A stretch of DNA of 64,000 nt from IMG/VR virus record IMGVR_UViG_3300037313_001331; one strand, 5' to 3'. Below are positions 5,739-61,912 of this stretch, one piece after another. Every line of letters starts with the position of its first letter. Within the stretch, counting starts at the first letter, position 1. Under the pieces are notes generated by a model. That model did no database searches. It saw nothing but the letters and a program-made list of their open reading frames with translations, and had not been told where the DNA came from. The position numbers and the translations under genes were made by a program. Source of the DNA: a virus. Taxonomy: Duplodnaviria; Heunggongvirae; Uroviricota; Caudoviricetes.

Positions 5739-6032
5739 ATGTCCGAACTGCACCGATCAAGCTATGCGATTCGCAAGGACCTACAGCCAGGCCTGGACAA
5801 GGCCATCACGACCATGGGGCTGCAGTCCATCGGCGAGCTGCTCAGCATGATCGCTCGCGACCCAGCGCGTGCCGCCATTGCGCTCAAGCCCTTGGCTGAC
5901 GCGCTGCAGGCCGACAAGGACGAGGCCAAGCGCTTGAAGCAGGCCCAGGCCGACGTGAAGAAGCTCGCACGCACCGCGGACCCGGAGGCCGTCGCGAAGG
6001 CACTGGCCATCTTGAACAAGGCGCAGAAGTGA
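5739..6032 (+). CDS. hypothetical protein
   Basis: ATG after GGAGA; CCTATAATG box and degenerate class A boxes upstream. Confidence 0.5.
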   Translation: MSELHRSSYAIRKDLQPGLDKAITTMGLQSIGELLSMIARDPARAAIALKPLADALQADKDEAKRLKQAQADVKKLARTADPEAVAKALAILNKAQK

Positions 6033-15949: not shown

Positions 15950-16006
15950 AAAAGAGGACCTCCGTAACCCATTGTAGGGATCAGAGGCCCTCCACTCGCC
16001 CCTTGC

Positions 16007-22447: not shown

Positions 22448-22900
22448 TTACCACGATCCGCGAGAAGCGACCCTGTGCCCGTCTTCGTAGACGGTGCGCC
22501 CCTCGGGTGGGTGTGAAACCAAATGATCGCCCTGTGAGTCAGGACTGAGTGATTCCATTGTAGAGACCGCCGAAGGCGTTGCCCGGTCGGCGTACAGGCT
22601 GGGCGTGCGCGAATTGGCGATCTCCACCAGCTGGCGCCAGTACCGCTTCATCTTGTTCCGGGTGATCGCCAGCTGCTTCGGGGTCAGCGACTCGTACCGG
22701 AGGTAGCCGCGCACCATGTCCGTGAGGAACGGGGCATCGAACCGGGAGAAGCCGACGCCATTCACCTCCCGGGTGTGGTGGCCGGCCTGTTCGGCGGCCG
22801 TCTGGCGGTTGTAGATGGCGAGCAGGGCCTTGTACACGGCCTGGTCGCTTCGCTCCAGGAGTGCCTGGATGCTCTCCTTCGTGTGAGTGGCAGCGGTCAC
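22448..22900 (-). CDS. hypothetical protein
   Basis: GTG after GAAGGG, 15 nt after a class B box; the ORF-track TTG start lies inside the box. Confidence 0.45.
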   Translation of the reverse strand: MTAATHTKESIQALLERSDQAVYKALLAIYNRQTAAEQAGHHTREVNGVGFSRFDAPFLTDMVRGYLRYESLTPKQLAITRNKMKRYWRQLVEIANSRTPSLYADRATPSAVSTMESLSPDSQGDHLVSHPPEGRTVYEDGHRVASRGSW

Positions 22901-23336: not shown

Positions 23337-23368
23337 AAAAAGGGCGGAGCCGAAGCCCCGCCCGTCAA
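23337..23368 (-). terminator. intrinsic terminator
   Basis: minus-strand GGGCGGGGC-TTCG-GCTCCGCCC followed by TTTTTG, downstream of gene 23392..24204. Confidence 0.6.
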
Positions 23369-24204: not shown

Positions 24205-24342
24205 AGGGCCTCCAAAAATTGGGAACTTGCAGAGCCCGCGAACCGCCCGGTTCGCAGTGTTCTCAGTGTTCGCGCTGACCGTTGGCGTGTGTCTTCAGCA
24301 CCAGGCTGTCTTCGCTCTCACCGACCGCCGCACTCGCGTGCT

Positions 24343-24390
24343 GCAGTGGTTGAACTGTCGGGCTCGGGGTTCGGCGCCGGTGCGACCGGC
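24343..24390 (-). promoter_or_regulatory. class B box copy 7 (degenerate, in the attP region)
   Basis: GCAGTGGTTGAACTGTCGGGCTCGGGGTTCGGCGCCGGTGCG resembles the 3' half of copy 6. Confidence 0.35.
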
Positions 24391-24467
24391 GAGGCTACGT
24401 TCGTGATTCGCGAATCACGAAGTGCGCGTGTGCGTGTGCGCGAGTGACACGCCAGACATGGCAGCGG

Positions 24468-24727
24468 CGTTCCCACCACGAGGCCCCACTGTTCCCACCA
24501 CCCCGGGCCGTTCCCACCATCGTTCCCACCTTTTTGCCCGGATGCAGGCGGACGGCAGCGAATAGGCGCGCAAAGAAAAAAGCCCCGTTTCCAGAGGAGA
24601 ACGGGGCTTTTCAGGATGGTTGCGGATCGTGATGAACGATCTGCTGGCGGAGCCGGAGGCTGTCCAATAGCAAGGATTGGCGCGGGTTCCCGGGGTATCA
24701 TTCCCACTTTCCCACCGCCATTCCCAC
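24468..24727. repeat. eight direct TTCCCAC(C) repeats, candidate integrase arm-type sites (attP)
   Basis: TTCCCACC at 24470, 24492, 24511, 24523 and TTCCCAC(C) at 24690, 24701, 24710, 24720, all upstream of int. Confidence 0.5.
24574..24612. terminator. bidirectional intrinsic terminator
   Basis: A-tract, then AGCCCCGT / ACGGGGCT 8-bp stem, then T-tract. Confidence 0.55.
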
Positions 24728-24737
24728 CGGCCAATTT

Positions 24738-25964
24738 ATGCCCCGTCACACCCTCGTCGCCACCACTTTGAAGGCGAAGATCGAAGCCGCACTGGCGGCT
24801 GCCAAGGACTCCCAGAAGGCCCAGAAGCTGGGCGACGGCGACGGGCTGATGCTGGTGGCCCGCCCCAGCGGCGATGCCTCGTGGGTGCTGCGGTACCGCC
24901 AGGATGGTGCACGAAAGGACCTGACCCTGGGCCGGTGGCCAACGCTGACCCTGAAGATGGCGCGGGACGAAGCGGACAAGGCCCGCAAGTCTGCCGCCAC
25001 CGGCGTCGACCCGGTCGAGGCGAAGAAGGCGGCCCGCAAAGCGCGCCCCGGCGTGGCATCGGGCCCGGACACGGTCAGGCGGCTCTTCGAGGACTGGCGG
25101 GCCAAGGAAGAGGTCAGCGCCGTCTACGCCGGCAACATCGAGGCGGCGTTCCTGAAGGACGTGCTGCCTGTCATCGGCGCCGTGCCACCCGAGGACGTGA
25201 CCCGCGAGCAGATCCTGAAAATCCTGCGGACCATCGAAGGCCGGGGCGCCGTCGACATGGTCCGCCGGGTTCGCATGTGGATGCGGCAGATGTTCGAGTT
25301 CGGCATCGAGGACGAGAGCCGCCCTGCCCTGCGCATGTCGCCGGTGCCGATGGGGACGCTGAAGTCCTTCAAGAAGTCACGCAAGAAGCGGCACTACGCG
25401 GCCATCAAGGACGCCAAGGAGGTGCCGGCGCTGATGAAGGCGATCAAGGGCATCACGGACAACTTTGTCATCCGGAACGCCTTCCTGCTGTCGGCGCACA
25501 CGTTCCAGCGGCCGACCGAGATTCGCGAGGCGACCTGGGACGAGTTCGACCTGGACGCAGGCATCTGGCGCATCCCCGCGGAGCGCATGAAGCTGGCCGG
25601 CGAGCACTGGGTGCCGCTGTCGCGCCAGGTGGTGGAGATCCTGCGCGTGCACAAGGGCGTGGTGGGAGATCAGGGCTGGCTGTTCCCGGGCCGGAAGTAC
25701 GGCCAGTCCATCTCCGAGGGCACGCTCACCGGCCGCCTGAACAACATGGGGTTCGAGGGCCGTCACACGCCTCACGGGTTCCGCGCGATGGCGCGGACCA
25801 TCGGTGAAGAGGTCCTGCACATCGACGCCAAGTACCTGGAGAAGCAGCTTTCACACGAGGTCGATGTGAGCGGGCTGCGGGGCGCCTACAACCGGGCGGA
25901 GTACTGGGACCAGCGGGTCAAGATGATGCAGAAGTGGTCGGACTGGCTGGACGCTCAGACATGA
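24738..25964 (+). CDS. int: tyrosine integrase (P4-like, N-terminal arm-binding domain)
   Basis: N-terminus GDGDGLMLVARPSGDASWVLRYR; C-terminal HGFRAMARTIG...RAEYWDQR catalytic region. Confidence 0.85.
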   Translation: MPRHTLVATTLKAKIEAALAAAKDSQKAQKLGDGDGLMLVARPSGDASWVLRYRQDGARKDLTLGRWPTLTLKMARDEADKARKSAATGVDPVEAKKAARKARPGVASGPDTVRRLFEDWRAKEEVSAVYAGNIEAAFLKDVLPVIGAVPPEDVTREQILKILRTIEGRGAVDMVRRVRMWMRQMFEFGIEDESRPALRMSPVPMGTLKSFKKSRKKRHYAAIKDAKEVPALMKAIKGITDNFVIRNAFLLSAHTFQRPTEIREATWDEFDLDAGIWRIPAERMKLAGEHWVPLSRQVVEILRVHKGVVGDQGWLFPGRKYGQSISEGTLTGRLNNMGFEGRHTPHGFRAMARTIGEEVLHIDAKYLEKQLSHEVDVSGLRGAYNRAEYWDQRVKMMQKWSDWLDAQT

Positions 25965-28598: not shown

Positions 28599-28937
28599 TC
28601 AGTGCAGCTCCGATTCGAGCAACCAGCCGATCTGCTGGCGCTCCGTGACCGGCAGCAGGTACAGGCGCCCTTGCCCGGTCGGACCCGGTTGGGTCATGAG
28701 TGAGTTGAGGACGGGGATGTAGGTCGCGACGTTGCGCAAGACCTTCTCGCCTTCCGGTGCGGGCGCCACGAACTCGTAGGCGAACACCTCGCAGTGCGCG
28801 TAGCCGCCGGACCGGCCGAAGCGCTCGACGATCACGAAGTCGGCGAGAGGGATGCCGTGGTGCTTAAGCCAGCTGACCGCCTCCTGCAGCCCGCCGGCGA
28901 TGTGCGTTTGAACGGAATTGAGTCGTGTGTCAGTCAT
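28599..28937 (-). CDS. hypothetical protein
   Basis: 112-aa ORF. Confidence 0.5.
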   Translation of the reverse strand: MTDTRLNSVQTHIAGGLQEAVSWLKHHGIPLADFVIVERFGRSGGYAHCEVFAYEFVAPAPEGEKVLRNVATYIPVLNSLMTQPGPTGQGRLYLLPVTERQQIGWLLESELH

Positions 28938-29010
28938 GACAAACCTCGTGGGGTGCGATGCTGAATGATCGAGGGGGCCCCTTGGACATGGGGGGTTGCT
29001 GCTTGGCTGG

Positions 29011-29124
29011 TCGCCCTACAATGCGTTGTGCCCTGTCGAAGGGCATGCCGAAAGGCTCCTCCCTCCATTCCTCCCATTACCTTTCGGCTAGGGGTCGGCC
29101 ACTTGTGAGCCGACCCCATTTTTC
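29011..29124 (+). ncRNA. candidate small RNA (promoter, structured CU-rich body, intrinsic terminator)
   Basis: CGCCCTACAATG -10-like box; stems TGCCCT/AGGGCA and GCCGAAAGG/CCTTTCGGC around CTCCTCCCTCCATTCCTCCC; GGGGTCGGC...GCCGACCCC then ATTTTTC. Confidence 0.4.
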
Positions 29125-29512
29125 ATACCGACCTCACCAGCACCGCGGTCCCCGCCTTGATCTCGGCAACAGCCTCGATCTCATCCAGCACCCGACAGTG
29201 CAGGAGCGTTTCGATGGGAAGGTCCACGCCGCGGGCGAAGCCCGCGATGCCGAAGGCGAAGCGAATCACCATCGAGACCACGAGCGACAGCAGGCCCAGC
29301 AGTGCCTCGCCCAGACCGTCGTGGATGCACGCCAGAACAACCTCGACCCACAGCCGCGTGGGCAGCAGGAAGACGTTCCAGAACGTGCCCAGCCATAGCG
29401 AGTTGAGGTAGGACGGGTTGCGGTACTTCAGGATCTGGTACGGCTCGGGCGTCCAATGCAGTCGCGCCAGCGCCGGGTTCAGCTCGAAGAGGACAGGGAA
29501 CTCGCCGGTCAA
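29123..29512 (-). CDS. membrane protein
   Basis: several hydrophobic segments. Confidence 0.5.
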   Translation of the reverse strand: MTGEFPVLFELNPALARLHWTPEPYQILKYRNPSYLNSLWLGTFWNVFLLPTRLWVEVVLACIHDGLGEALLGLLSLVVSMVIRFAFGIAGFARGVDLPIETLLHCRVLDEIEAVAEIKAGTAVLVRSV

Positions 29513-34788: not shown

Positions 34789-34807
34789 TTACTCACCTGG
34801 ACAAAAA

Positions 34808-34836
34808 TAGGCGGGCACGGAGGCCCGCCCCTATGG
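34808..34836 (-). terminator. intrinsic terminator between two class A boxes
   Basis: minus strand GGCGGGC-ctccgt-GCCCGCC followed by TATTTTTGT. Confidence 0.5.
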
Positions 34837-34846
34837 CACATCGTGT

Positions 34847-34880
34847 GTCATCACTGACTGTCGAACTCATTATAGGGAGC
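34847..34880 (-). promoter_or_regulatory. conserved -10-like box plus class A box
   Basis: minus strand GCTCCCTATAATGAGTTCGACAGTCAGTGATGAC. Confidence 0.5.
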
Positions 34881-38429: not shown

Positions 38430-38507
38430 TGGGGACGGCGGCAGGACTCGAACCTGCGACCAAGTGCCTGTTCGGCACGATTGCTCTACCGCTGAGCTAC
38501 GCCGTCC
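38430..38507 (-). tRNA. tRNA-like gene, His-type acceptor (G-1:C73, encoded CCA) but non-canonical anticodon arm
   Basis: canonical D arm and T arm, 7-bp acceptor plus extra 5' G; anticodon region GTGCC-GAACA-GGCAC has a 5-nt loop or G33. Confidence 0.55.
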
Positions 38508-46690: not shown

Positions 46691-47170
46691 TTACCAGCTG
46701 CCGCGGGACGGCGCATCGGCATTGCGTTCATGGGGAACGCTGGGGCGGGGAGTCATCGCTCCCCGCTCCGTCACGAAATCTTCTGGCGCTGCCAGCAGTT
46801 CGGAGAACCAAGTCTCCAAGCCATCGAAGTGCTCAATGGCGTCTTGCAGGGGCAGCGTCACGCCACTGATCTCCTTCGCGAGTTCAAGGTCCGCCGGCGC
46901 GAAGGCGGCACCCACGATGTAGGATTTGTTGGGCAGGTCGTTGTCCACGTACAGGTCGGCCAGGCGGAACTTCTCGTCGCCGATGAATGAGTGCGGAAGT
47001 GCCACTGTGCCGCCGGCCTTGGTTGTCTTCCGGAAGCGCACCTTCAGCACCGCCGGTCCCTTGATCTGGAACACCGGAGCGTCCTTACCCATCGCCGCCT
47101 GCTTGGCGGTGGCCAGAATCCGACGCAGATCGATGCGCCTCTCCTGCAGCTCAGCCTTGCCTATACGCAC
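46691..47170 (-). CDS. hypothetical protein
   Basis: 159-aa ORF. Confidence 0.5.
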   Translation of the reverse strand: MRIGKAELQERRIDLRRILATAKQAAMGKDAPVFQIKGPAVLKVRFRKTTKAGGTVALPHSFIGDEKFRLADLYVDNDLPNKSYIVGAAFAPADLELAKEISGVTLPLQDAIEHFDGLETWFSELLAAPEDFVTERGAMTPRPSVPHERNADAPSRGSW

Positions 47171-49098
47171 AGCGAGCCCTCCACGGTCGAGGTGCCGTCC
47201 TTCTTGCGGACCACGGTCACCTCGTCACACCAGTCCCTGAGTTCGTTGTGGCTGATCACCAGCACCGTGCCTCGCTCCCGAGCCTTGCGCTCCAGCAGCG
47301 TCATCAGGCGCTCCAGACCGGCGGCGTCCATCGCCTCGTCGATCTCGTCACCGATCCACAGCTCGATGGGGTTCGCGGCCCGGGAAGCGACCAGGTCCTG
47401 CAGCGCGAGGCCGCATGCCAGGCGCACGCGCTTCTTCTCGCCGCCCGACAGGCCCTGGAAGTTGTCGCTGCCCTTGTCGTTGTGCACGTCGATGGAGAAC
47501 TTCTCCTTCAGGTCGCCCTTGGCGCCCTTGGTCAGCGTGGTCCAGGTCGCGTGCATGTTCCCGTCCGACAGCACCGAGAGGTAGTCGGCGGTTCGGTCGT
47601 TCAGGAACGGCGTCACCGTGTCGAGGATCTGCGCCCGAACGCCGGCCGGCCCGAAGACCTTCACCACCGACTCGGCGATCTCCAGCGCCTCCTGCTTCGT
47701 CGCGACCTGGGTGGTCAGCTCGCCCATCTTGCTGGCGTGCTCTGCGACCTGGGTTTCGAGCATGGTCACGGTCGCCGCGTGCGGGTTGCTCTCGGTCTTG
47801 CGCAGCTCGACCTGTTCCTTCGCCTTGTCGAGCGCCGCCTTCATGCGCTCGATCTCGTCCTTGCCTTGTTGGAAGCGCGTCACGACGGCCTGGAGGCCCG
47901 TGCGCTCAGCAGTGATCGCCGACACGTCGGGCACCTTGCGGCGCGCTTCCGTTGCTGCAGCTGCCGCCCAAGTGGCGGCAGTGACCTGCTTCAGAACCAG
48001 AGCCTTCACGGCCGCGAGGTTGTCCTTTGCCGTTGTCAGCAGCGTCTCGACGTGGGCGATCAGCTCGCTCTGTTCCGATTCGGTGTGCGTCTTCCCGCAG
48101 GACTCACACGGCGCGATCTTGCCAGCCCGGGTGGCCTCCAGCTGCTTCTCCAGCTGCGCGATTGTTTTCTCGGCAGCGTCCTTTTTGTGCTTCTCGATGC
48201 CGCGTAGGGCCGCCTGGTGCTTGGTCTCCGCGTCACGGGCGGCACGCTCCAGCTCACCGTGCTTCTCCAGCTCGGTGTCGATCTCGGCGATGCGCACCAC
48301 GGCCGCGTCGTGCCCCTTCTTCGAGGCCAAGACGTTCGCCAGGTGCGTGCGCAGCTTCAGCTCCTGCTCCGTGACCGCGACGGTCGCCTCGTCGACGCGA
48401 ACACCGCGCCCCTTTTCCCAGGCGCCATAGTTAGCGCGTGCCTTCAGCAGCGTCTCCTCGACGCGCTTCATCACCGCCTGCAGCGTGGTGCGGGCAGCCT
48501 CCGCGGTCTCCAGCTCACGCTGGGCAGTCGTGCGTCGCTTGGTCGCGATCTCGTAGGCGCGCTCGTAGCGCCGCAGCCCTGCCGCCTCTTCGACCAGGGT
48601 CTTCAGCTCCTTGTCGGTCTTCATGGGCAGGTCGGGCATGACCTCCTGACCGCTGTAGACCGCGGCCATGAAGACCTCCTGGCTGCAACCCAGAATGCTC
48701 TCCAGCACCTTCTGGCTCTCGGCTTCGGTGCCTTTGTGCAGGTCGACCGCGCCGGAAGCGGTCACTGCCTGAATCAGCAGGCTGTTCTTGTGGTCCTTGT
48801 GCTTGCGGAACCGCTGGACGACGTAGACAGAATCGCCCTTGCGCAGCGTCAGCTGCACGGAGCAATCCTTCTTGGCGGTCTGATTGACCACCTTGTCGCC
48901 CTTGATGCCGCGGGCAGTCGTCCCGAACAGCACCCAGCAGATCGCGTCGACCAGGCTGGACTTGCCGGCGCCGTTGCTCGACGCGGACCCGTCATCCTCG
49001 TTCTTGCCCTGGATCAGGTGCAGCCCACGATCCTGCAGATCAACGGCAGCTCGCCCGATGGTCAGAAAGTTCTGAATGTAGAGGCGAACAAACTTCAC
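47161..49098 (-). CDS. SbcC/Rad50-like ATPase
   Basis: Walker A GAGKSS, coiled coils with CESCGK zinc hook, signature LSGGEKKR, Walker B LWIGDEIDE; GTG start overlapping upstream TGA (GTGA). Confidence 0.85.
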   Translation of the reverse strand: MKFVRLYIQNFLTIGRAAVDLQDRGLHLIQGKNEDDGSASSNGAGKSSLVDAICWVLFGTTARGIKGDKVVNQTAKKDCSVQLTLRKGDSVYVVQRFRKHKDHKNSLLIQAVTASGAVDLHKGTEAESQKVLESILGCSQEVFMAAVYSGQEVMPDLPMKTDKELKTLVEEAAGLRRYERAYEIATKRRTTAQRELETAEAARTTLQAVMKRVEETLLKARANYGAWEKGRGVRVDEATVAVTEQELKLRTHLANVLASKKGHDAAVVRIAEIDTELEKHGELERAARDAETKHQAALRGIEKHKKDAAEKTIAQLEKQLEATRAGKIAPCESCGKTHTESEQSELIAHVETLLTTAKDNLAAVKALVLKQVTAATWAAAAATEARRKVPDVSAITAERTGLQAVVTRFQQGKDEIERMKAALDKAKEQVELRKTESNPHAATVTMLETQVAEHASKMGELTTQVATKQEALEIAESVVKVFGPAGVRAQILDTVTPFLNDRTADYLSVLSDGNMHATWTTLTKGAKGDLKEKFSIDVHNDKGSDNFQGLSGGEKKRVRLACGLALQDLVASRAANPIELWIGDEIDEAMDAAGLERLMTLLERKARERGTVLVISHNELRDWCDEVTVVRKKDGTSTVEGSLCV

Positions 49099-49703
49099 AG
49101 AGTCGCTCCTTCTTCCTTGTGCTCGAACATCCATTCCTCCACCTTGAAGGTCGGGATTCGCTTCCCGTTGCAGTAGGGTTCGAGAATGAACGACTCGTCG
49201 CGGACCTGCTTGCCCTCGAAGAACAGCACGCAGGCCCCCTTCGAGAAGCGGATGCTGTGCACCTGGTCCGCGGTCATCGTGTAGACGGAGCCGACCTCAT
49301 AGGTCCTCTCTTCGATAAGCCAGTCGTCGGGCTTCGCTTCCGGGGTCACCGTGTACTCGCCCATGCCGGCGGCCTGCAGCTTCGAGCGGATGAACTGGTC
49401 ACCCACCTCGTCGGTGTGCGGCCGGACCTTCCGGTAGGTCTGGTTGGTTACCGATCCCGCCAGCACCAGGCAGGCGAAGTTGAATCGGTGGCTGTGCGGC
49501 GTGATGTGGTGTTGCGTCTGGCGGTCAGACCTGAACAGGCGCACTTTCCCGTACTCGCCGCCACCCACCAGCTCACTGGTGAGGCCCGGCAACGCGTAGT
49601 TGCGCACTTCGTCATGTGTCATGCGGCTGACGGCCTCCCTCAGCACCTCCATCGGTGACTGCAGGGCTTCATCCCTCGTCTTCTTGTACGGCCCCATGCT
49701 CAA
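49095..49703 (-). CDS. hypothetical protein between the SbcC-like and SbcD-like genes
   Basis: 202-aa ORF; HITPHSHRF segment. Confidence 0.5.
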   Translation of the reverse strand: MSMGPYKKTRDEALQSPMEVLREAVSRMTHDEVRNYALPGLTSELVGGGEYGKVRLFRSDRQTQHHITPHSHRFNFACLVLAGSVTNQTYRKVRPHTDEVGDQFIRSKLQAAGMGEYTVTPEAKPDDWLIEERTYEVGSVYTMTADQVHSIRFSKGACVLFFEGKQVRDESFILEPYCNGKRIPTFKVEEWMFEHKEEGATL

Positions 49704-50825: not shown

Positions 50826-50851
50826 CCCAAAAATTGCCCCGCTTGCGGGGC
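50826..50851 (-). terminator. intrinsic terminator
   Basis: minus strand CCCCGC-aa-GCGGGG followed by CAATTTTTGGG, between a TATAAT box and the sbcD-like SD. Confidence 0.5.
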
Positions 50852-50859
50852 TTCAATCA

Positions 50860-50885
50860 ATTATAGAGAGTTAGTCAGTGATGAC
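50860..50885 (-). promoter_or_regulatory. class A box plus TATAAT
   Basis: minus strand GTCATCACTGACTAACTCTCTATAAT; the box spans the SleB-like stop codon. Confidence 0.45.
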
Positions 50886-55972: not shown

Positions 55973-56117
55973 CGCGTTTCAAATGGCAAATGTGAGCGCC
56001 AGGTCAGACCGGACGGCTTGATGTCATCGATGCCGGCCATGCATAGTGCTGGCGCTCAGGTTTGCCTTCGTCACGAGAAAAATGGGGCGGCGCGATGCCG
56101 CCCCGTGGGGTTGTCGA

Positions 56118-57142: not shown

Positions 57143-57652
57143 CTATTCGGACGACTTCGCAGCGCCGCCAGACATCGCGTCCAGCATCCGCTCGCGATTG
57201 GCCTGGTTGACAGCGACCCGCAGGCCACCCTCCTTCTCCTTCGCTGCGTCCCGGGCGATCTGCAGGAGCATGTCCTTGCGGTGCTCGAAGGATCGCTCAG
57301 CGACTTCGGCCAGGCGGTATTCCTGCTGAGCGTCGATCAGCTGCGCGTAGGCGCGACGGTACCGGGCGTCCAGCACCAGCGCGGCACGAATCTGCCCCTC
57401 GGTGGTCTTGGGGTTTTCTTCCTTCAGCTTCAGACGGTATTCGCCATCCAGCTTGCCTTCGAGGATCTCGACCGCCACCTTGTACCGCTCGTACTGGCGC
57501 TTCGCCCGCACGGTCCGCGTGGCGTAGAACACGTACAGCGCGGAGTGCTGCGCCATGTTCCCGCTCAGGTCGGTCAGGTCGATGGAAATGTCCTTCTTCA
57601 GCTGCTCCGGGTCGACGTATGCCGTCATCGCGGTTTCTGCGGCTTCGCTCAT
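57143..57652 (-). CDS. hypothetical protein
   Basis: AGGAGAG SD; ATGA overlap with the dnaE stop. Confidence 0.5.
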   Translation of the reverse strand: MSEAAETAMTAYVDPEQLKKDISIDLTDLSGNMAQHSALYVFYATRTVRAKRQYERYKVAVEILEGKLDGEYRLKLKEENPKTTEGQIRAALVLDARYRRAYAQLIDAQQEYRLAEVAERSFEHRKDMLLQIARDAAKEKEGGLRVAVNQANRERMLDAMSGGAAKSSE

Positions 57653-60600
57653 GTCAGTAGCTCTCCTAGTTTCTCGAACGTGTTCTCGATCAGCCGGACC
57701 TTCGAGGGGTCATGGAAGACTGATCCGGGGTGAATGCCGAAGATGACGGTTGCATCCAGGTCGGCGCGATAGATGACCTTGCCGGCCAGGTCCGCCGGCG
57801 TGCCCTTGATGCCCGGCGCGAACCAGCGCACCGCGTTGCTGCCCATCGCGATGATGATGGGCGGCTTCAGAATCTCGATCTCCTGCTCCAGGTACTTGGA
57901 GCATCCGATGATCTGCTCGTTGGTCAGGGCCTTCTGCTCTTTCGGCTTCGACACCTTCACCAGCGACGTGTAGTAGCCGTCGGAGGCCCGGAGGCCCACG
58001 TCCTTCAGAGCCGCCTTCACCGCTTCGGAGGCCTTGCCTTCCAGCATCTTGCCGGCGCGCTCCTCTTCCCAGCTGGGTGTGTCGAACACCATCATGAACC
58101 GCGGCTTGTCGCCCATGCGCGGCAGCGGGTGCGGCTTGCCCTTGAGCGAGCACCCCTCACATGCGCGGGCCTCCTCGACCAGGCGGGTGATCTTGATCTT
58201 GGCCAAGTGCTCCGCATTCAGCTCGCGGTCGGGGCGCACCATTTCGACGGTGAAGCCCGGCACCAGTGCAATGCGGTCTTTCAACCGGTCGGGGTGCGTC
58301 GCGGGCTTGCCCTCACCGGTGATCGAGTGGAGTGCCCCGACCTTCTCCAGGTTCTCCAGGTGCTTGCTGTTGACGGCGGTCCGCCCCAGCACCTCCTTCT
58401 GGGTCTCCTGGTCCAGCCCGCGGATGTGCGCCGGCACCTCCACGATCTTCACCTTGGTCTTGAGCGGCACTTCCTTCGTGCTCACCGGCACCCAGGTGAA
58501 TCTGCCGCCCACGTGGGCGCGCAGCTTCTCGATGGCAGCGGCCACGCCCGAGCTGATGCCCTTGATGGCCTGCAGGGGCGCGTACAGCTTGTCCTCGCCC
58601 TCGATCTCAACCCGGGCGCTCGAACGGTTCAGGTCAGGCGGCAGGACCTGCAGCTTCTTCCCCTGGGCATCAAGCACCAGGCCCGCCAGCTTCTCGTCCT
58701 TGTCGACCACCGTCATCGCCGCGGCGAAGAATTCGGCGGGGTAGTACACCTTCAGCCACATCGTCACCCAGCTGATGAGCGAGTACTCGTAGGAGTGCGA
58801 CTTGTTGAAGGAGTATGCCGCGTAGCCCTCGATGGAGGTCCACAGCGACTCGGCCTTGTGCTCTTCCCATTCGGAGTGGTCGACGCAGCCCTTGATGAAC
58901 TTGTCCTTGAACTCGGCCATCTTCTCGGCGTCCTTCTTGCCGATGGCCTTTCGCACACCGTCTGCTTCGCCCGGCGTGAAGCCCGCGAGCACCCGGCAGA
59001 CCTGCATCACCTGCTCCTGGTACGCCATCACCCCGTAGGTTTCAGACAGCACCGGCTCCAGCTTCGGGTGGTCGTAGTACGGCCGCGTGGCTCCCTGCTT
59101 CACCTGGACGTAGCGGTCACAGAGGCCGGCGTCCAGCGGGCCCGGCCGGAAGAGCGCGGTTGCGGCGCAGATGTCGTCGAACGTGAGCGGCCCGCCCAGT
59201 GCCAGCTGCTTCAGCAGGTTCTTCATGCCGCCGCCCTCGAACTGGAACACGCCGGTGGTGTCGCCCTTCGCGAATGCCTCCAGCACCCGCTTGTCGTCAA
59301 GCGGCAGGGAAAGCATGTCGATGGTCTTGTGGTGACGCTCGCGGATGTACTCCAGCGCCGTCTCGACCATGTCCAGAGTGCTGAGGCCCAGAATGTCGAT
59401 CTTGATCAGGCCAAAGTCCTCGACCTTGGTCTTGTCCCACTGCACGATCGGCAGGGTGCTGCCATCCTTGTCACCGCGGGTGGACACCACGGCCCGGTTC
59501 ACCACCGGCTCGCCGGCGACGACCACGCCCGCGGCGTGTTGCGACAGCGAGCGGTTGGCGCCCTCCAGGCGCAGCGCATAGTCCCACAGGATCGGCCGCT
59601 CGTTCTTGAACTTCTCGATGTCGGGCACGCGTTCGGCGGACTCGGTCAGGCTCAGCGAGACACCGTGCTCCTTTTCCATCTGCTTCGAGCAGGCGTACTC
59701 CCATGGATCCAGGTCATGCAGGCGCGCGGTGTCGCGCAGCGCCGACGCCGGGCCCAGAGTGGAGAAGTTGACGATGCCGGCAACGCGGTCGTGCCCCCAC
59801 TTGTTGCGGATGTAGTCGATGACCATGTGGCGCTTGCCGGACATGAAGTCGAGGTCGGCGTCGGGAAGGTCCACGCGGTCGGGGTTGATGAAGCGCTCGA
59901 ACAGCAGGCCGAAACGGATGGGGTCGATGTCAGTGATGCCCATCAGGTAGGCGACCAGAGACCCGCCCACGGAGCCGCGCCCGGGGCCGACGCGCACGCC
60001 GTTTTCCTTGCTCCAGTTGACGATGTCCTGCACCAGCAGGAAGTAGCCGCTGAAGCCCATCTTCTTCAGGACGCCCAGCTCGAATGCCAGGCGCTCCCGG
60101 TACGGTCCGTCCAGGTCCTCGCGGCTCGGGGCGTGGCCCCAGACCTCGCGACCGAAGCGTTTGCCCCAGCCGGCCTTCACTGCGGCCAGCAGCGCGGTGA
60201 ACTCGTCGTCAGCCATCTTGGGCATGGTCGGCTGCAGCTTCTTGAAGACGAAGCTGCAGCCGGCCGGGATCAGCTTGGCGTTCTCGACCAGCGAGAGCAC
60301 CCGACCGCTGCCAACCTGGTCGCGCAGCTTCTTGCACTCCTCCACCATGTCCTTCGCTGACAGCAGGCACATGTTGCGCACGTAGGGGCGCGGCAGAAAG
60401 ATCGAATGGGCGGACGTGTTGCTGCTGATGGCGCGCAGCACGTCGGTGGCATTCGCGTCCTCGGGCGTGGCGTAGAACGCCGGCCGAGTGACGATCATGG
60501 TCTGCAGGTAGGCGTCGCCCACCTCGAACGCCTTGCGGTTCAGACGGTTGAACAGCGGCGTGTCCAGCGCCACCAGCTCGATGATGTAGTCGCGGCCGAA

Positions 60601-61074
60601 CCGGGCGGACAGCTGCGCGCTGATCGAGGTGGCGTCCTCGCGGTGCCACAGGTTGTAGATGTCGCCGGTCGTGACGATCACGTCCTCCAGCGCCAGCACG
60701 TCGGCCAGACCCAGGCGGGCGTGGTAGTAGTAGTGCTCGGGCGTGAGCGACTTCGTGAGGGCCGCGAACAGACTCTGCATGCCCTTGTCGGACTTCACGT
60801 AGACCTTCAGGCGGTAGCCGCCGTTCTCGCGGTCCTTGAGCTTCGCCGTCGGATCGTCCACCACCTGGATGGTGCACCCGACAATGGGCGTGATGCCGGC
60901 CTTCTTGCATTTCTCGGCGAAGAACGGCATCGACGCGACGCTCATGTAGTCCGCGAGCGCGATGTGCGTGTAGCCCAGCTCCTTCGCGCGGTCGACGATC
61001 TTGCCGACCTGGAAGCTGGACTCGCCCAGCGAGAAGTCGGAGCGAACCGACAGTGCGATCTGCAGCGGATTCAA
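57649..61074 (-). CDS. dnaE: DNA polymerase III alpha (DnaE) fused to a C-terminal family-4 UDG-like domain
   Basis: PHP domain and palm GPGRGSVGGSLVAYLMGITDIDP; C-terminal ~190 aa with GIHPGSV (HPS-like) motif; TTG start after GGAGAAG, overlapping upstream TGA (TTGA). Confidence 0.85.
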   Translation of the reverse strand: MNPLQIALSVRSDFSLGESSFQVGKIVDRAKELGYTHIALADYMSVASMPFFAEKCKKAGITPIVGCTIQVVDDPTAKLKDRENGGYRLKVYVKSDKGMQSLFAALTKSLTPEHYYYHARLGLADVLALEDVIVTTGDIYNLWHREDATSISAQLSARFGRDYIIELVALDTPLFNRLNRKAFEVGDAYLQTMIVTRPAFYATPEDANATDVLRAISSNTSAHSIFLPRPYVRNMCLLSAKDMVEECKKLRDQVGSGRVLSLVENAKLIPAGCSFVFKKLQPTMPKMADDEFTALLAAVKAGWGKRFGREVWGHAPSREDLDGPYRERLAFELGVLKKMGFSGYFLLVQDIVNWSKENGVRVGPGRGSVGGSLVAYLMGITDIDPIRFGLLFERFINPDRVDLPDADLDFMSGKRHMVIDYIRNKWGHDRVAGIVNFSTLGPASALRDTARLHDLDPWEYACSKQMEKEHGVSLSLTESAERVPDIEKFKNERPILWDYALRLEGANRSLSQHAAGVVVAGEPVVNRAVVSTRGDKDGSTLPIVQWDKTKVEDFGLIKIDILGLSTLDMVETALEYIRERHHKTIDMLSLPLDDKRVLEAFAKGDTTGVFQFEGGGMKNLLKQLALGGPLTFDDICAATALFRPGPLDAGLCDRYVQVKQGATRPYYDHPKLEPVLSETYGVMAYQEQVMQVCRVLAGFTPGEADGVRKAIGKKDAEKMAEFKDKFIKGCVDHSEWEEHKAESLWTSIEGYAAYSFNKSHSYEYSLISWVTMWLKVYYPAEFFAAAMTVVDKDEKLAGLVLDAQGKKLQVLPPDLNRSSARVEIEGEDKLYAPLQAIKGISSGVAAAIEKLRAHVGGRFTWVPVSTKEVPLKTKVKIVEVPAHIRGLDQETQKEVLGRTAVNSKHLENLEKVGALHSITGEGKPATHPDRLKDRIALVPGFTVEMVRPDRELNAEHLAKIKITRLVEEARACEGCSLKGKPHPLPRMGDKPRFMMVFDTPSWEEERAGKMLEGKASEAVKAALKDVGLRASDGYYTSLVKVSKPKEQKALTNEQIIGCSKYLEQEIEILKPPIIIAMGSNAVRWFAPGIKGTPADLAGKVIYRADLDATVIFGIHPGSVFHDPSKVRLIENTFEKLGELLT

Positions 61075-61280
61075 GGCGTCTTCTCCAGCGGCACGACGAC
61101 ACCCTTGAAGATGTCCGCGTACTTCACCGCGCTGCCGATTGACATCGGCACACTGAACCGAGGTGGAATGCAGTCGTCGTAGCGAACGCGTGCTTTTGGC
61201 CACCAGTGAGGCTCGTGCCCGCGGAGACCGTTGTGACAAAAGAAACCCATTCGCCCGAGAAGAAGCCAGATCTTGAACAT
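61071..61280 (-). CDS. small ORF translationally coupled to dnaE
   Basis: ATG 5 nt after class A box plus ACACA; no SD. Confidence 0.35.
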   Translation of the reverse strand: MFKIWLLLGRMGFFCHNGLRGHEPHWWPKARVRYDDCIPPRFSVPMSIGSAVKYADIFKGVVVPLEKTP

Positions 61281-61285
61281 TGTGT

Positions 61286-61297
61286 GTCAGTGGTGAC
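61286..61297. promoter_or_regulatory. class A box
   Basis: minus strand GTCACCACTGACACACA directly followed by ATG 61280. Confidence 0.5.
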
Positions 61298-61306
61298 TGA
61301 GTCTTT

Positions 61307-61912
61307 TCATGATAGTGCCCGCGTGGGGTTGGATGTGAAATGCAACGCCCCATTCAGCTCACAAACCAGTTGCCCGGCGAGGAAGATCGCCACCGCATCG
61401 GAGACCTTCACCTTGGCGCTACTGGGCGCCATGCCCAGCTCTGCCTGGAAGGCGAATGCCAAGCGCGCTCGGGACCATCCGCCCTCCAGCAGGGCCCGCA
61501 CCATGATGTGTCGCCAGCCCTTCGCCGCGGGGTTTCGGCCCGCCTGCATTTCCGCACGCACGTGGTCGAACCAGCCACACTCGAAGCCCCGACGGATCTG
61601 ACTCTGCACGCGCTTGGGCGCGGCGTCGATCACCTGCTGTTCGCCCGCGGTGATGCTGACGCGCGTGACGCCCCGGGTGCTCGCCGTGATCGTTCTGTCG
61701 GGGACCTCCCCACCCTGCTTCGCTGGCGAACCCTGCAGCAGCTTCGCTGCGAGCACAAGGTCCTGGCGTGCACGACGCACGCCAGCTTCATCGGGAAGCT
61801 TCGCCAGCACCCGACGTGCAACCGACACGCACGCCGCCGAGTGCGAACAGGCGCCACACGTTGTCGATGTGGCGCTGACGTAGACCGGAGAACCGTAGCA
61901 GGTGGGCGTCAA
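61307..61912 (-). CDS. Cys-rich protein coupled to the sigma factor (candidate anti-sigma)
   Basis: TTG start overlapping the sigma stop (TTGA); CYG...TTCGACSHSAAC cluster; function inferred from context only. Confidence 0.4.
   Translation of the reverse strand: MTPTCYGSPVYVSATSTTCGACSHSAACVSVARRVLAKLPDEAGVRRARQDLVLAAKLLQGSPAKQGGEVPDRTITASTRGVTRVSITAGEQQVIDAAPKRVQSQIRRGFECGWFDHVRAEMQAGRNPAAKGWRHIMVRALLEGGWSRARLAFAFQAELGMAPSSAKVKVSDAVAIFLAGQLVCELNGALHFTSNPTRALS

What the first reader, a model, noticed from the sequence alone, without database searches (positions are those of the whole stretch)
29011..29124. Candidate ~100-nt small RNA with a CU-rich anti-Shine-Dalgarno-like loop, antisense to the surrounding gene block
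A 186-bp gap lies between two minus-strand genes. On the plus strand it has CGCCCTACAATG (the same family as the conserved -10 boxes, with a TTGCTG -35-like hexamer 15 bp upstream). Then come a 6-bp hairpin (TGCCCT/AGGGCA), a 9-bp long-range stem GCCGAAAGG...CCTTTCGGC enclosing CTCCTCCCTCCATTCCTCCCATTAC, and a textbook intrinsic terminator (GGGGTCGGC-loop-GCCGACCCC-ATTTTTC). The hairpin/T-tract orientation only makes sense for a rightward (plus-strand) transcript. No ORF with an SD fits. The exposed CCUCC repeats could pair with GGAGG Shine-Dalgarno sequences of the many phage mRNAs, or with the anti-SD-dependent ribosome, and act as a translational modulator.
Basis: seen in the sequence. Interest (0 to 1): 0.7.

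Follow-up and report, generated by a model that had tools for sequence, protein, structure and literature searches.

The report
Candidate phage small RNA, anti-Shine-Dalgarno loop
A 185-base non-coding gap in a temperate phage genome has the layout of a self-contained gene for a roughly 95-nucleotide regulatory RNA whose large open loop could block ribosome-binding sites, but no expression data or related copy is available to confirm it.

Summary
The gap (28938-29122) is non-coding by codon composition. On the + strand it holds a -10 box of the phage's own promoter family (CCCTACAAT, 29014-29022). Three perfect hairpins follow. The second exposes a 24-nt G-free loop with three CCUCC cores. The third is a strong intrinsic terminator, the only strong + strand one inside the long minus-strand gene block apart from a bidirectional hairpin next to the integrase gene.

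The most likely reading is an independent, antisense-oriented transcription unit (a non-coding "moron") that makes a ~95-nt sRNA. This sRNA would pair with Shine-Dalgarno regions. It is also perfectly complementary to the intercistronic mRNA on the other strand.

This is not proven. The stems are all Watson-Crick, so folding does not identify the strand. The -35 element is weak. All recovered contigs are 100% identical, so covariation cannot be tested. The two distant relatives lack the element. Rfam gives no + strand match, and no convincing target lies in the window.

It fails the definitions of the cuckoo/αr14 and AbcR families. It works like them and like phage-borne SprX. Verdict: a plausible new member of a known kind, of moderate interest.

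The parts
28996..29001 (+). -35-like hexamer TTGCTG. It matches TTGACA at 3 of 6 positions and lies 15 nt upstream of the -10 box. It is weak and possibly irrelevant.
   Evidence: Other members of the box family show no conserved -35.
29014..29022 (+). -10 promoter box CCCTACAAT, a member of the phage's CCCTAnAnT box family. It has no ACTCAGT/ACTGACT operator-like half-sites nearby.
   Evidence: CCTANAAT occurs 7 times against 0.8 expected, and 0 of 100 shuffles reach 7. All 7 CCCTAnAnT boxes are intergenic. Operator-like motifs sit near the other boxes but not this one.
29028..29123 (+). Predicted sRNA of about 93-96 nt. The TSS is inferred 6-8 nt after the -10 box, and the 3' end is placed in the T5 tract.
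   Evidence: Inference from the promoter box and the terminator. Fold: -44.9 kcal/mol, z = -6.2.
29028..29046 (+). 5' hairpin 1: UGCCCU paired with AGGGCA (6 Watson-Crick pairs plus a possible G29028-U29046 wobble), loop GUCGA.
29047..29088 (+). Hairpin 2: a perfect 9-bp stem, GCCGAAAGG paired with CCUUUCGGC, around a 24-nt loop.
29056..29079 (+). G-free loop CUCCUCCCUCCAUUCCUCCCAUUA, the presumed seed region. It holds three CCUCC cores (starting at 29058, 29062, 29070), two UCCUCCC heptamers (starting at 29057, 29069) and CUCCCA at 29071-29076.
   Evidence: Unpaired probability is about 1 across the loop. It lies in the only + strand G-free run of 22 nt or more in the window. Exact CCTCCCTCC is unique in the window.
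29091..29123 (+). Intrinsic terminator: GGGGUCGGC, a 9-nt loop, GCCGACCCC, then A and U5. The T-tract overlaps the stop codon (29123-29125) of the convergent 129-aa gene.
   Evidence: The hairpin is -21.4 kcal/mol, the second strongest of all terminator-like sites in the window. It is the only strong + strand one inside the minus-strand block apart from the bidirectional 24576-24611.
28938..29122 (-). Intercistronic stretch of the minus-strand early operon mRNA. It is perfectly complementary to the sRNA and displays the purine-rich loop GUAAUGGGAGGAAUGGAGGGAGGAG. It is the obligatory cis partner of the sRNA, or under the rival reading the functional element itself.
   Evidence: No minus-strand terminator or promoter box lies between 34803 and 26156, so the flanking genes are probably co-transcribed. 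Minus-strand fold z = -3.9.

Best explanation
The gap holds a self-contained, antisense-oriented transcription unit, a non-coding 'moron' inserted between two ORFan genes of the early or accessory operon of a temperate phage of about 111 kb.

Transcription (inferred):
- RNA polymerase starts about 6-8 nt downstream of the CCCTACAAT box, near 29028-29030.
- It stops at the GC-rich hairpin plus U5 tract, near 29121-29123.
- The product is an sRNA of about 95 nt with a 5' protective hairpin, a 9-bp stem presenting a 24-nt G-free loop, and a terminator hairpin.

Action in trans (inferred):
- The loop carries three CCUCC cores, the same core as the 16S anti-SD. It includes UCCUCCC twice and CUCCCA once.
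- The loop would pair with GGAGG-type Shine-Dalgarno regions of host and/or phage mRNAs.
- Pairing would occlude the ribosome-binding site and repress translation, as αr14/NfeR1, AbcR and SprX do.

Action in cis (follows from geometry):
- The sRNA is perfectly complementary to the intercistronic segment of the minus-strand operon mRNA.
- Loop-loop kissing and double-strand cleavage there would uncouple the upstream and downstream cistrons.

Timing (inference):
- This promoter lacks the operator-like half-sites that accompany the other promoter boxes.
- It may therefore be expressed constitutively, including from the prophage.

Shown: the sequence anatomy, the non-coding nature of the gap, the promoter-box family membership, the terminator strength and orientation, and the loop accessibility.
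Inferred: transcription itself, the transcript ends, the targets and the regulatory outcome.
For: - All elements are present and in the right order.
- The + strand fold is -46.5 kcal/mol with z = -5.1. The 95-nt version gives z = -6.2.
- The terminator hairpin is -21.4 kcal/mol with T5. This equals the phage's own best terminators and is oriented against the surrounding genes.
- The box CCTANAAT occurs 7 times against 0.8 expected. All CCCTAnAnT boxes are intergenic. Several sit directly upstream of genes, for example 26149(-) before alpA and 5698(+) before the gene at 5739.
- The loop is fully unpaired in the partition function.
- The loop lies in the longest G-free tract on the + strand of the window.
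- The gap is non-coding. The 61-aa and 38-aa minus-strand ORFs have GC3 z-scores of -3.7 and -2.9. The JGI and Logan gene calls place no gene there.
- Relatives lack the element at the syntenic position, which fits an inserted accessory unit.
- The mechanism has precedent. The CCUCCUCCC loop motifs of αr14/cuckoo sRNAs silence mRNAs at the ribosome-binding site (PMC4615179, PMC10746234). CUCCCA is the M1 seed of AbcR (PMC5461406). Phage-borne SprX uses a C-rich loop against the spoVG ribosome-binding site (PMC4005690).
Against: - No expression data are available.
- The -35 hexamer matches at 3 of 6 positions with a 15-nt spacer. The generic scan does not call the promoter or the terminator.
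- All stems are Watson-Crick, so the minus strand folds nearly as well (-45.5 kcal/mol, z = -3.9).
- There is no conservation or covariation evidence. The nine retrieved contig segments are all 100% identical to the window.
- The flanking proteins are ORFans.
- DNA pattern scans of the viral, genome and metagenome collections returned only low-complexity chance hits.
- blastn against phages and plasmids found nothing.
- Rfam gave no + strand hit at E <= 10.
- Translation-initiation regions in the window pair only modestly better with the loop than coding background (-14.9 against -12.8 kcal/mol). That difference is the trivial consequence of their carrying SD sequences.
- The best long match is the 11-mer GGAGGAATGGA at 49130-49140(-). 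It lies inside a coding region and is at chance expectation, about 0.4.
- The U-tail is short at 5 U, and there is no A/U-rich linker of the kind typical of Hfq-dependent sRNAs.
Confidence: 0.4

Rival explanations
1. The sRNA exists but acts only in cis. It pairs with the perfectly complementary intercistronic segment of the minus-strand operon mRNA through kissing of the two 24-nt loops. This triggers RNase III cleavage or transcriptional interference, and so sets the ratio of upstream (129-aa membrane protein and others) to downstream (112-aa through AlpA) gene expression. Under this reading the anti-SD look of the loop is incidental.
For: Geometry gives 100% complementarity over about 95 nt. 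No minus-strand terminator or promoter box lies between 34803 and 26156, so the operon mRNA should span the gap. Phage cis-antisense RNAs such as OOP, sar and aQ are well known (PMC12197685).
Against: The sRNA overlaps no ribosome-binding site and no coding sequence. It touches only the stop codon of the 129-aa gene, and the start of the 112-aa gene lies about 90 nt beyond its 5' end. A 24-nt loop with three CCUCC repeats is not needed for cis pairing. Kissing loops are usually 5-8 nt (own knowledge).
Confidence: 0.15
2. The functional element is on the sense (minus) strand. It would be a structured intercistronic mRNA segment whose hairpin loop displays GGAGG-rich sequence (GGGAGGAAUGGAGGGAGGAG). 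Possible roles are a ribosome standby or SD decoy, an mRNA stabiliser or processing site, a binding site for a GGA-recognising protein such as CsrA/RsmA, or a sponge for host anti-SD sRNAs. The + strand promoter box and T-tract would be incidental.
For: The minus strand folds into the same three hairpins with z = -3.9. The element lies within an mRNA that is almost certainly made. The loop contains four GGA motifs, and GGGAGGAG is the near-complement of the cuckoo motif. Rfam's only sub-threshold hit is on the minus strand: DUF1874 RNA at 17.5 bits against a gathering score of 42, E = 0.64. An unrelated viral contig, L029, carries a CU-rich-loop hairpin plus terminator in the sense orientation between genes. 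Orientation relative to genes is therefore not fixed for such elements.
Against: This reading does not explain the U5 tract placed exactly after the GC-rich hairpin on the opposite strand. It does not explain the family -10 box 69 nt upstream of that hairpin on that same strand. The purine loop is about 110 nt from the start of the 112-aa gene, too far for a classic standby or CsrA site. The Rfam hit is far below threshold.
Confidence: 0.2
3. There is no dedicated sRNA. The hairpin plus T5 is an insulating terminator. It stops stray or regulatory + strand (antisense) transcription, for example read-through from the integrase gene (24738-25964, +), from running further against the early operon. 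The upstream hairpins and the TACAAT box would be chance or remnants.
For: My scan found no + strand terminator between the end of int (25964) and 29091. The -35 hexamer is weak.
Against: A terminator for int would be expected next to int, not 3.1 kb downstream. Untranslated antisense RNA of that length would normally be stopped by Rho (own knowledge). This reading does not explain two further perfect hairpins, the unique 30-nt G-free tract, or the family promoter box all packed into the 70 nt before the terminator.
Confidence: 0.1
4. The gap encodes a small protein on the minus strand. One candidate is the 61-aa ORF (29119 to 28934), which fills the gap and ends in an ATGA overlap with the 112-aa gene. 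The other is the 38-aa ORF (29046 to 28930), preceded by GGAGGAG at 9 nt and overlapping the next start by 8 nt, which would allow translational coupling.
For: The ORF boundaries fit the gap neatly. The 38-aa ORF has a strong SD-like sequence.
Against: GC by codon position is 0.62/0.64/0.57 for the 61-aa ORF and 0.66/0.53/0.63 for the 38-aa ORF. Called genes have GC2 0.45 +/- 0.05 and GC3 0.83 +/- 0.07. The GC3 z-scores are -3.7 and -2.9. The gene callers used for the JGI and Logan contigs call nothing here. In DNA of 64% GC, stop-free stretches of 38-61 codons are common. My estimate of the chance is 0.2-0.36, and there are 64 ORFs of 30 aa or more in 4.5 kb. The 61-aa ORF has no SD.
Confidence: 0.05

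Closest known systems
αr14 / 'cuckoo' sRNA family of α-proteobacteria (NfeR1/SmelC397, CcsR1-4/RSs0680a-d; Rfam RF02344)
   Same: - A hairpin presents a CU-rich anti-SD motif in a large loop. The loop CUCCUCCC matches the last 8 of the 9 positions of CCUCCUCCC.
- Hairpin dimensions fall within the family's limits: 42 nt overall, a 24-nt loop and a 9-bp helix, against limits of 24-50, 9-27 and at least 6.
- The presumed mechanism is the same: occlusion of ribosome-binding sites by redundant aSD seeds (PMC4615179, PMC10746234).
   Different: - Only one motif-bearing hairpin is present, and the family requires 2-4.
- The repeated seeds sit side by side in a single loop instead of one per hairpin.
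- No covariance-model hit was found.
- It is carried by a phage and lies antisense within an operon.
- The host clade is unknown.
AbcR1/AbcR2 (αr15) sRNAs of Rhizobiales and Brucella
   Same: The exact 6-nt M1 seed CUCCCA is exposed in a hairpin loop (29071-29076). M1 is a functional regulatory motif in Brucella AbcR (PMC5461406).
   Different: There is no M2 motif (GUUCCC), no Rfam match and no sequence similarity outside the hexamer. A 6-mer match is expected by chance in any CU-rich loop.
SprX (RsaOR) of Staphylococcus aureus converting phages
   Same: It is a phage-borne trans-acting sRNA whose C-rich hairpin loop pairs with a ribosome-binding site and blocks ribosome loading (PMC4005690). 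It shows that this kind of element exists on phages.
   Different: It comes from an unrelated low-GC Gram-positive system. It has a different sequence and architecture, and it is experimentally validated.
Phage cis-antisense RNAs (λ OOP, λ aQ, P22 sar) and phage trans sRNAs (λ PreS, VP882 VpdS)
   Same: These are short, terminator-ended transcripts made against the direction of an early operon of a temperate phage (PMC12197685).
   Different: OOP, sar and aQ overlap a coding region or ribosome-binding site of their target. This element overlaps only an intercistronic spacer and a stop codon. There is no sequence similarity.
Phage 'morons': accessory units with their own promoter and terminator inserted between conserved genes (own knowledge of the concept)
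   Same: It is a compact unit of promoter, payload and terminator. It is absent from the syntenic position in relatives. It lacks the operator motifs of the neighbouring promoters.
   Different: The payload is a non-coding RNA rather than a protein gene. Expression from the prophage is not shown.

Membership tests
cuckoo / αr14 (RF02344) | Two to four adjacent hairpins, each carrying the motif in its loop (PMC4615179) | tested here: not met
   Only hairpin 2 carries CU-rich motifs. Hairpin 1 has the loop GUCGA, and the terminator loop is CACUUGUGA.
cuckoo / αr14 (RF02344) | Loop motif CCUCCUCCC | tested here: inconclusive
   The loop begins CUCCUCCC, the last 8 of the 9 positions. The missing first C is replaced by the last stem G. 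The second copy is UUCCUCCC. The family's allowed IUPAC variants (Fig. 3C of PMC4615179) could not be read.
cuckoo / αr14 (RF02344) | Hairpin of 24-50 nt, loop of 9-27 nt, helix of at least 6 bp | tested here: met
   Hairpin 2 is 42 nt with a 24-nt loop and a 9-bp helix.
cuckoo / αr14 (RF02344) | Match to the Rfam covariance model | tested here: not met
   cmscan of 28900-29200 at E <= 10 gave no + strand hit to any of 4227 families. The gathering-threshold scan of the whole window found only the tRNA.
cuckoo / αr14 (RF02344) | Occurrence in Rhizobiales or Rhodobacterales | not testable with these tools
   The host is unknown. The nearest phage proteins are 38-58% identical to those of Rhizobium, Stenotrophomonas and Achromobacter phages and Ralstonia replicons.
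AbcR (αr15) | M1 seed CUCCCA in the first hairpin loop and M2 seed GUUCCC between hairpins (PMC5461406) | tested here: not met
   CUCCCA is present at 29071-29076. GUUCCC is absent from the predicted transcript. There is no Rfam hit.
Independent trans-acting sRNA gene (generic) | Own promoter upstream | tested here: inconclusive
   The family -10 box is present. The -35 hexamer is weak with a 15-nt spacer, and the generic scan does not call it.
Independent trans-acting sRNA gene (generic) | Rho-independent terminator on the same strand | tested here: met
   The hairpin is -21.4 kcal/mol and is followed by T5. The minus strand has no U-tract after it.
Independent trans-acting sRNA gene (generic) | A detectable transcript of defined length | not testable with these tools
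   No transcriptome data are accessible.
Independent trans-acting sRNA gene (generic) | Conservation or covariation in related genomes | tested here: not met
   All contigs are 100% identical. The relatives L032 and L059 lack the element. Model R1 finds no second copy.
Cis-antisense phage RNA (OOP/sar type) | Overlap with the ribosome-binding site or coding region of the regulated gene | tested here: not met
   The overlap is limited to the intercistronic spacer and the stop codon at 29123-25. The start of the 112-aa gene (28937) is about 90 nt from the predicted 5' end.
Small protein-coding gene | Codon-position GC profile of this genome (GC3 about 0.83, GC2 about 0.45) | tested here: not met
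   For the 61-aa ORF, GC2 is 0.64 and GC3 is 0.57. For the 38-aa ORF, GC2 is 0.53 and GC3 is 0.63.

The most novel reading that the evidence does not exclude
The RNA is not an ordinary target-specific sRNA. Instead it is a phage-made mimic of the 16S anti-SD, with three CCUCC cores in one open loop. When abundant, it would titrate strong GGAGG-type Shine-Dalgarno sites genome-wide. A variant is that its purine-rich complement on the operon mRNA titrates ribosomes or host anti-SD sRNAs. Either way, translation would shift globally between strong-SD and weak-SD or leaderless messages during lysogeny or infection.
Probability: 0.06. Interest if true: 0.8.

Novelty: new member of a known kind. Interest (0 to 1): 0.4.

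Why it matters
Few phage-encoded regulatory RNAs have been characterised, and most are from enterobacterial, Vibrio and staphylococcal phages (PMC12197685).

If validated, this would be an anti-SD sRNA carried as a non-coding moron by a large, high-GC temperate phage of an uncultured lineage. It would extend the 'C-rich loop against the ribosome-binding site' strategy to that group. It would also show a compact variant in which several redundant seeds share one loop rather than one per hairpin.

The locus offers a clean test case. It has a single promoter without the phage's operator motif, so it may be a lysogenic-conversion RNA.

Without expression data or conservation it remains a well-formed prediction rather than a discovery.

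Tried and rejected
1. Known RNA family. Rfam at gathering threshold on the whole window found only the tRNA. Rfam at E <= 10 on the locus gave only a sub-threshold minus-strand DUF1874 hit. ARAGORN found only tRNA-Val.

2. Homologues by synteny.
- The flanking 112-aa and 129-aa proteins have no relatives in IMG/VR and almost none among 5.8 billion proteins.
- The single 38%-identical relative (L032) has a 43-nt gap there.
- A relative found through the exonuclease (L059, 63% identity) has tightly packed genes after its 129-aa homologue.

3. Homologues by DNA.
- megablast and blastn against phages and plasmids found nothing.
- Loop-pattern scans of viral, genome and metagenome contigs gave only low-complexity chance hits.
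- One architectural analogue appeared, in sense orientation (L029).

4. Population variation. All nine retrieved contig segments are 100% identical to the window, so they carry no information.

5. Paralogues. The single-sequence covariance model R1 and a hairpin/CU-loop descriptor found no second copy in the window.

6. Targets in the window.
- The RNAduplex ranking of translation-initiation regions is dominated by generic SD pairing.
- The 11-mer at 49130-49140 turned out to lie in coding sequence upstream of the probable GTG start (49098) of the SbcC-like gene.

7. Host identification. The integrase, PolIII and RNR hits are all 58% identity or lower and are spread over α-, β- and γ-proteobacterial phages and replicons.

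8. Other identities. A type I toxin-antitoxin reading was rejected because the neighbouring protein is 129 aa and is overlapped only at its stop codon. Retron, CRISPR-repeat-mimic and riboswitch readings were rejected because there is no reverse transcriptase, no repeats, no downstream + strand gene and no Rfam hit.

9. Function of neighbours. Pfam and PHROGs give nothing for the neighbouring ORFans.

Full report
**What the window is**

- The 64-kb window has 64% GC.
- It encodes a PolIII-alpha protein with a UDG domain, a RecA-like protein, an SbcC-like ATPase, a class II RNR and an RNase T-type exonuclease.
- It also carries a P4-type integrase next to an AlpA-like gene.
- There is no DNA match in GenBank phages.
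- Core proteins are 40-58% identical to those of Rhizobium and Stenotrophomonas phages of about 110-120 kb.
- Exact-protein look-ups place the locus on metagenome contigs of up to 110,897 bp from JGI and Logan.
- All retrieved segments are 100% identical to the window.
- It is therefore a temperate phage of about 111 kb from an uncultured lineage. The host could not be determined.
- Almost all genes from about 9.4 kb to 63.8 kb are on the minus strand.

**Check of the observation**

- Every element is present.
- The gap is 28938-29122, 185 nt.
- TTGCTG lies at 28996-29001, then a 15-nt spacer, then TACAAT at 29017-29022.
- Hairpin 1 is 29029-34 paired with 29040-45.
- Hairpin 2 is 29047-55 paired with 29080-88, with a 24-nt loop at 29056-79.
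- The terminator is 29091-99 paired with 29109-17, followed by T5 at 29119-23.
- The T5 tract overlaps the stop codon of the convergent 129-aa gene.
- The + strand RNA folds exactly as described. MFE is -46.5 kcal/mol with z = -5.1, and the 95-nt version gives z = -6.2.
- The loop is unpaired in the ensemble.
- The two perfect 9-bp inverted repeats lie 2 nt apart.
- The 30-nt G-free run at 29056-29085 is the only one of 22 nt or more on the + strand of the window.
- The loop holds three CCUCC cores, two UCCUCCC heptamers and one CUCCCA.

**Is the gap coding?**

- Two minus-strand ORFs fit the gap suspiciously well.
- A 61-aa ORF (29119 to 28934) starts 4 nt after the upstream stop and ends in an ATGA overlap with the next gene.
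- A 38-aa ORF (29046 to 28930) is preceded by GGAGGAG at 9 nt.
- Their codon-position GC profiles are 0.62/0.64/0.57 and 0.66/0.53/0.63.
- Genes called by JGI in this region have GC2 0.45 +/- 0.05 and GC3 0.83 +/- 0.07. The GC3 z-scores are -3.7 and -2.9.
- The gene callers behind the public contigs call nothing here.
- Stop-free stretches of this length are common at 64% GC.
- I treat the gap as non-coding. About 5% remains for a small protein.

**Which strand?**

- Folding does not decide. All stems are Watson-Crick, and the minus strand folds at -45.5 kcal/mol with z = -3.9.
- Two features point to the + strand.
- First, the terminator.
  - The U5 tract follows the hairpin only on the + strand.
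  - On the minus strand an A-run precedes the hairpin and UAGCC follows it.
  - In a window-wide scan the phage uses canonical GC-hairpin-plus-T5 terminators for its minus-strand operons: 34803-34830, 56078-56104, 23337-23363 and 50829-50851.
  - The 29091-29123 hairpin (-21.4 kcal/mol) is the second strongest of all.
  - It is the only strong + strand terminator inside the minus-strand block apart from the bidirectional 24576-24611.
- Second, the promoter box.
  - CCTANAAT occurs 7 times against 0.8 expected, and 0 of 100 shuffles reach that count.
  - The extended form CCCTAnAnT occurs 7 times, always intergenic.
  - Several boxes sit just upstream of genes in the correct orientation. Examples are 26149(-), 27 nt before alpA, and 5698(+), 35 nt before the gene at 5739.
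  - The locus box CCCTACAAT is a member of this family.
  - It lacks the ACTCAGT/ACTGACT-type half-sites that accompany most other boxes.
- Weak points:
  - The -35 hexamer matches at 3 of 6 positions with a 15-nt spacer.
  - The family as a whole shows no conserved -35.
  - The generic scan calls neither the promoter nor the terminator, because of the 15-nt spacer and the 9-nt loop.

**Comparative evidence**

- None could be obtained.
- The flanking proteins are ORFans.
- The only relatives of the 129-aa membrane-like protein are L032 and L059, at 34-40% identity. Their exonucleases are about 62-63% identical to the window's.
- In both relatives the next gene follows the 129-aa homologue with no comparable gap.
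- The unit therefore looks like a lineage-specific insertion.
- DNA pattern scans of IMG/VR, GTDB genomes and JGI metagenomes with the loop sequence returned only low-complexity chance matches.
- blastn found nothing.
- A single-sequence covariance model found no second copy in the window or in the relatives.
- One unrelated viral contig (L029) has the same architecture: an 8-9-bp stem, a 31-nt CU-rich loop and an adjacent terminator. It is in the sense orientation between genes. This is an analogue, not a homologue.

**Targets**

- The loop pairs somewhat better with translation-initiation regions of window genes than with coding background (-14.9 against -12.8 kcal/mol). This is expected for any CU-rich sequence.
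- Several genes have GGGAGGA or GGAGGAA Shine-Dalgarno sequences that match the heptamer perfectly. No extended, specific interaction stands out.
- The longest trans match is the 11-mer at 49130-49140(-).
  - It lies in coding sequence upstream of the probable GTG start of the SbcC-like gene.
  - It is at chance expectation.
- Host targets cannot be assessed.

**Most likely mechanism**

- The locus is an independent, antisense-oriented promoter-RNA-terminator unit producing an sRNA of about 95 nt.
- Its 24-nt loop carries redundant anti-SD seeds that occlude ribosome-binding sites.
- Precedents are the αr14/cuckoo sRNAs NfeR1 and CcsR (PMC4615179, PMC10746234), the AbcR M1 seed CUCCCA (PMC5461406) and phage-borne SprX (PMC4005690).
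- By geometry the sRNA is also perfectly complementary to the intercistronic operon mRNA, so a cis effect is unavoidable if both RNAs are made.
- The absence of operator-like motifs suggests expression independent of the phage's main regulator, possibly in lysogens. This is inference.
- My estimates are about 0.55-0.6 that a discrete + strand sRNA is made and about 0.4 for the full statement.

**Rivals**

- A cis-only antisense role: 0.15.
- A sense-strand mRNA element displaying GGAGG-rich sequence: 0.2.
- An insulating terminator with chance upstream features: 0.1.
- A small protein: 0.05.

**Comparison with known families**

- It is not a member of cuckoo/αr14.
  - It has one motif-bearing hairpin instead of two or more.
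  - It matches the motif at 8 of 9 positions.
  - It has no covariance-model hit.
- It is not a member of AbcR, because it has no M2 seed.
- It works like those families and like SprX.
- It differs in packing three seeds into a single loop and in being a phage-borne unit antisense within an operon.
- Novelty class: new member of a known kind.
- Interest is moderate (0.4). It is a clean, testable prediction that lacks expression and conservation support.

Noticed in passing
window 5698(+), 15971(-), 19424(+), 26149(-), 34869(-), 36134(-), 40263(-); also TATAAT at 50860(-), 57116(-) and TACAAT at 22557(-): A conserved promoter-like box family, (G)CTCCCTAnAnTG, is always intergenic. Most boxes are accompanied by operator-like half-sites ACTCAGT / ACTGACT / AGTCAGT..TGAC, often as palindromes flanking the box (for example CTGACTGTCG...CGACAGTCAG around 34869). 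This is probably the phage's repressor-controlled early promoters. The same half-sites occur in the relative L059 (about 10680).
   Followed up: partly
window 34803-34876 (-): The order on the minus strand is gene stop, promoter box, about 38 nt, strong intrinsic terminator (34830-34803), then the next gene. Promoter-proximal termination of this kind suggests a short leader RNA or an antitermination-controlled unit (λ PR'-tR'-like). At 50860(-) a TATAAT is followed after 8 nt by terminator 50851-50829.
   Followed up: no
window 15950-15992 (-): The strongest terminator-like hairpin in the window (-24.2 kcal/mol) carries a family box, CCCTACAAT, in its loop. It could be an overlapping terminator and promoter, or a coincidence.
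   Followed up: no
window 28974-28981: A GGGGCCCC palindrome lies about 50 nt upstream of the predicted sRNA start. It may be a regulator-binding site for the sRNA promoter.
   Followed up: no
window 38430-38506 (-): A phage-borne tRNA-Val has the unusual anticodon AAC (ARAGORN; Rfam 48.9 bits).
   Followed up: no
window 57649-61353 (-): This ORF matches the PolIII alpha domains (PHP, NTPase, finger, HhH) and a C-terminal uracil-DNA glycosylase-superfamily domain in one ORF.
   Followed up: no
window 24576-24611 and 24205-24737: A perfect bidirectional terminator (AAAAGCCCCGTTTCC...GGAAACGGGGCTTTT type) lies just upstream of the integrase gene, in the likely attP region. Minus-strand early transcription appears to have no terminator between 34803 and this point, so it would run antisense across int.
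   Followed up: no
L029 3893-3988 (-) (IMGVR_UViG_3300012984_000020): An unrelated viral contig of 64% GC has an analogous element: the stem CCCGCCGG/CCGGCGGG around a 31-nt loop, CUUUCUCCUCCCUCCCUCCCUCCCUCAGUUA, followed directly by an intrinsic terminator. It lies in the sense orientation between two genes. It may be a 3'UTR-derived anti-SD sRNA.
   Followed up: partly
window 49098 (-): The SbcC-like gene (listed as 47161-49134) probably starts at GTG 49098. This gives a GTGA overlap with the upstream stop and GGAG 8 nt upstream, and the AAA_23 match would then begin at residue 5.
   Followed up: partly
window 29123-29512 (-): The 129-aa neighbour looks like a small membrane protein, with two or three hydrophobic segments. 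It is the only flanking gene with any relatives (34-40% identity in L032 and L059), and its function is unknown.
   Followed up: no
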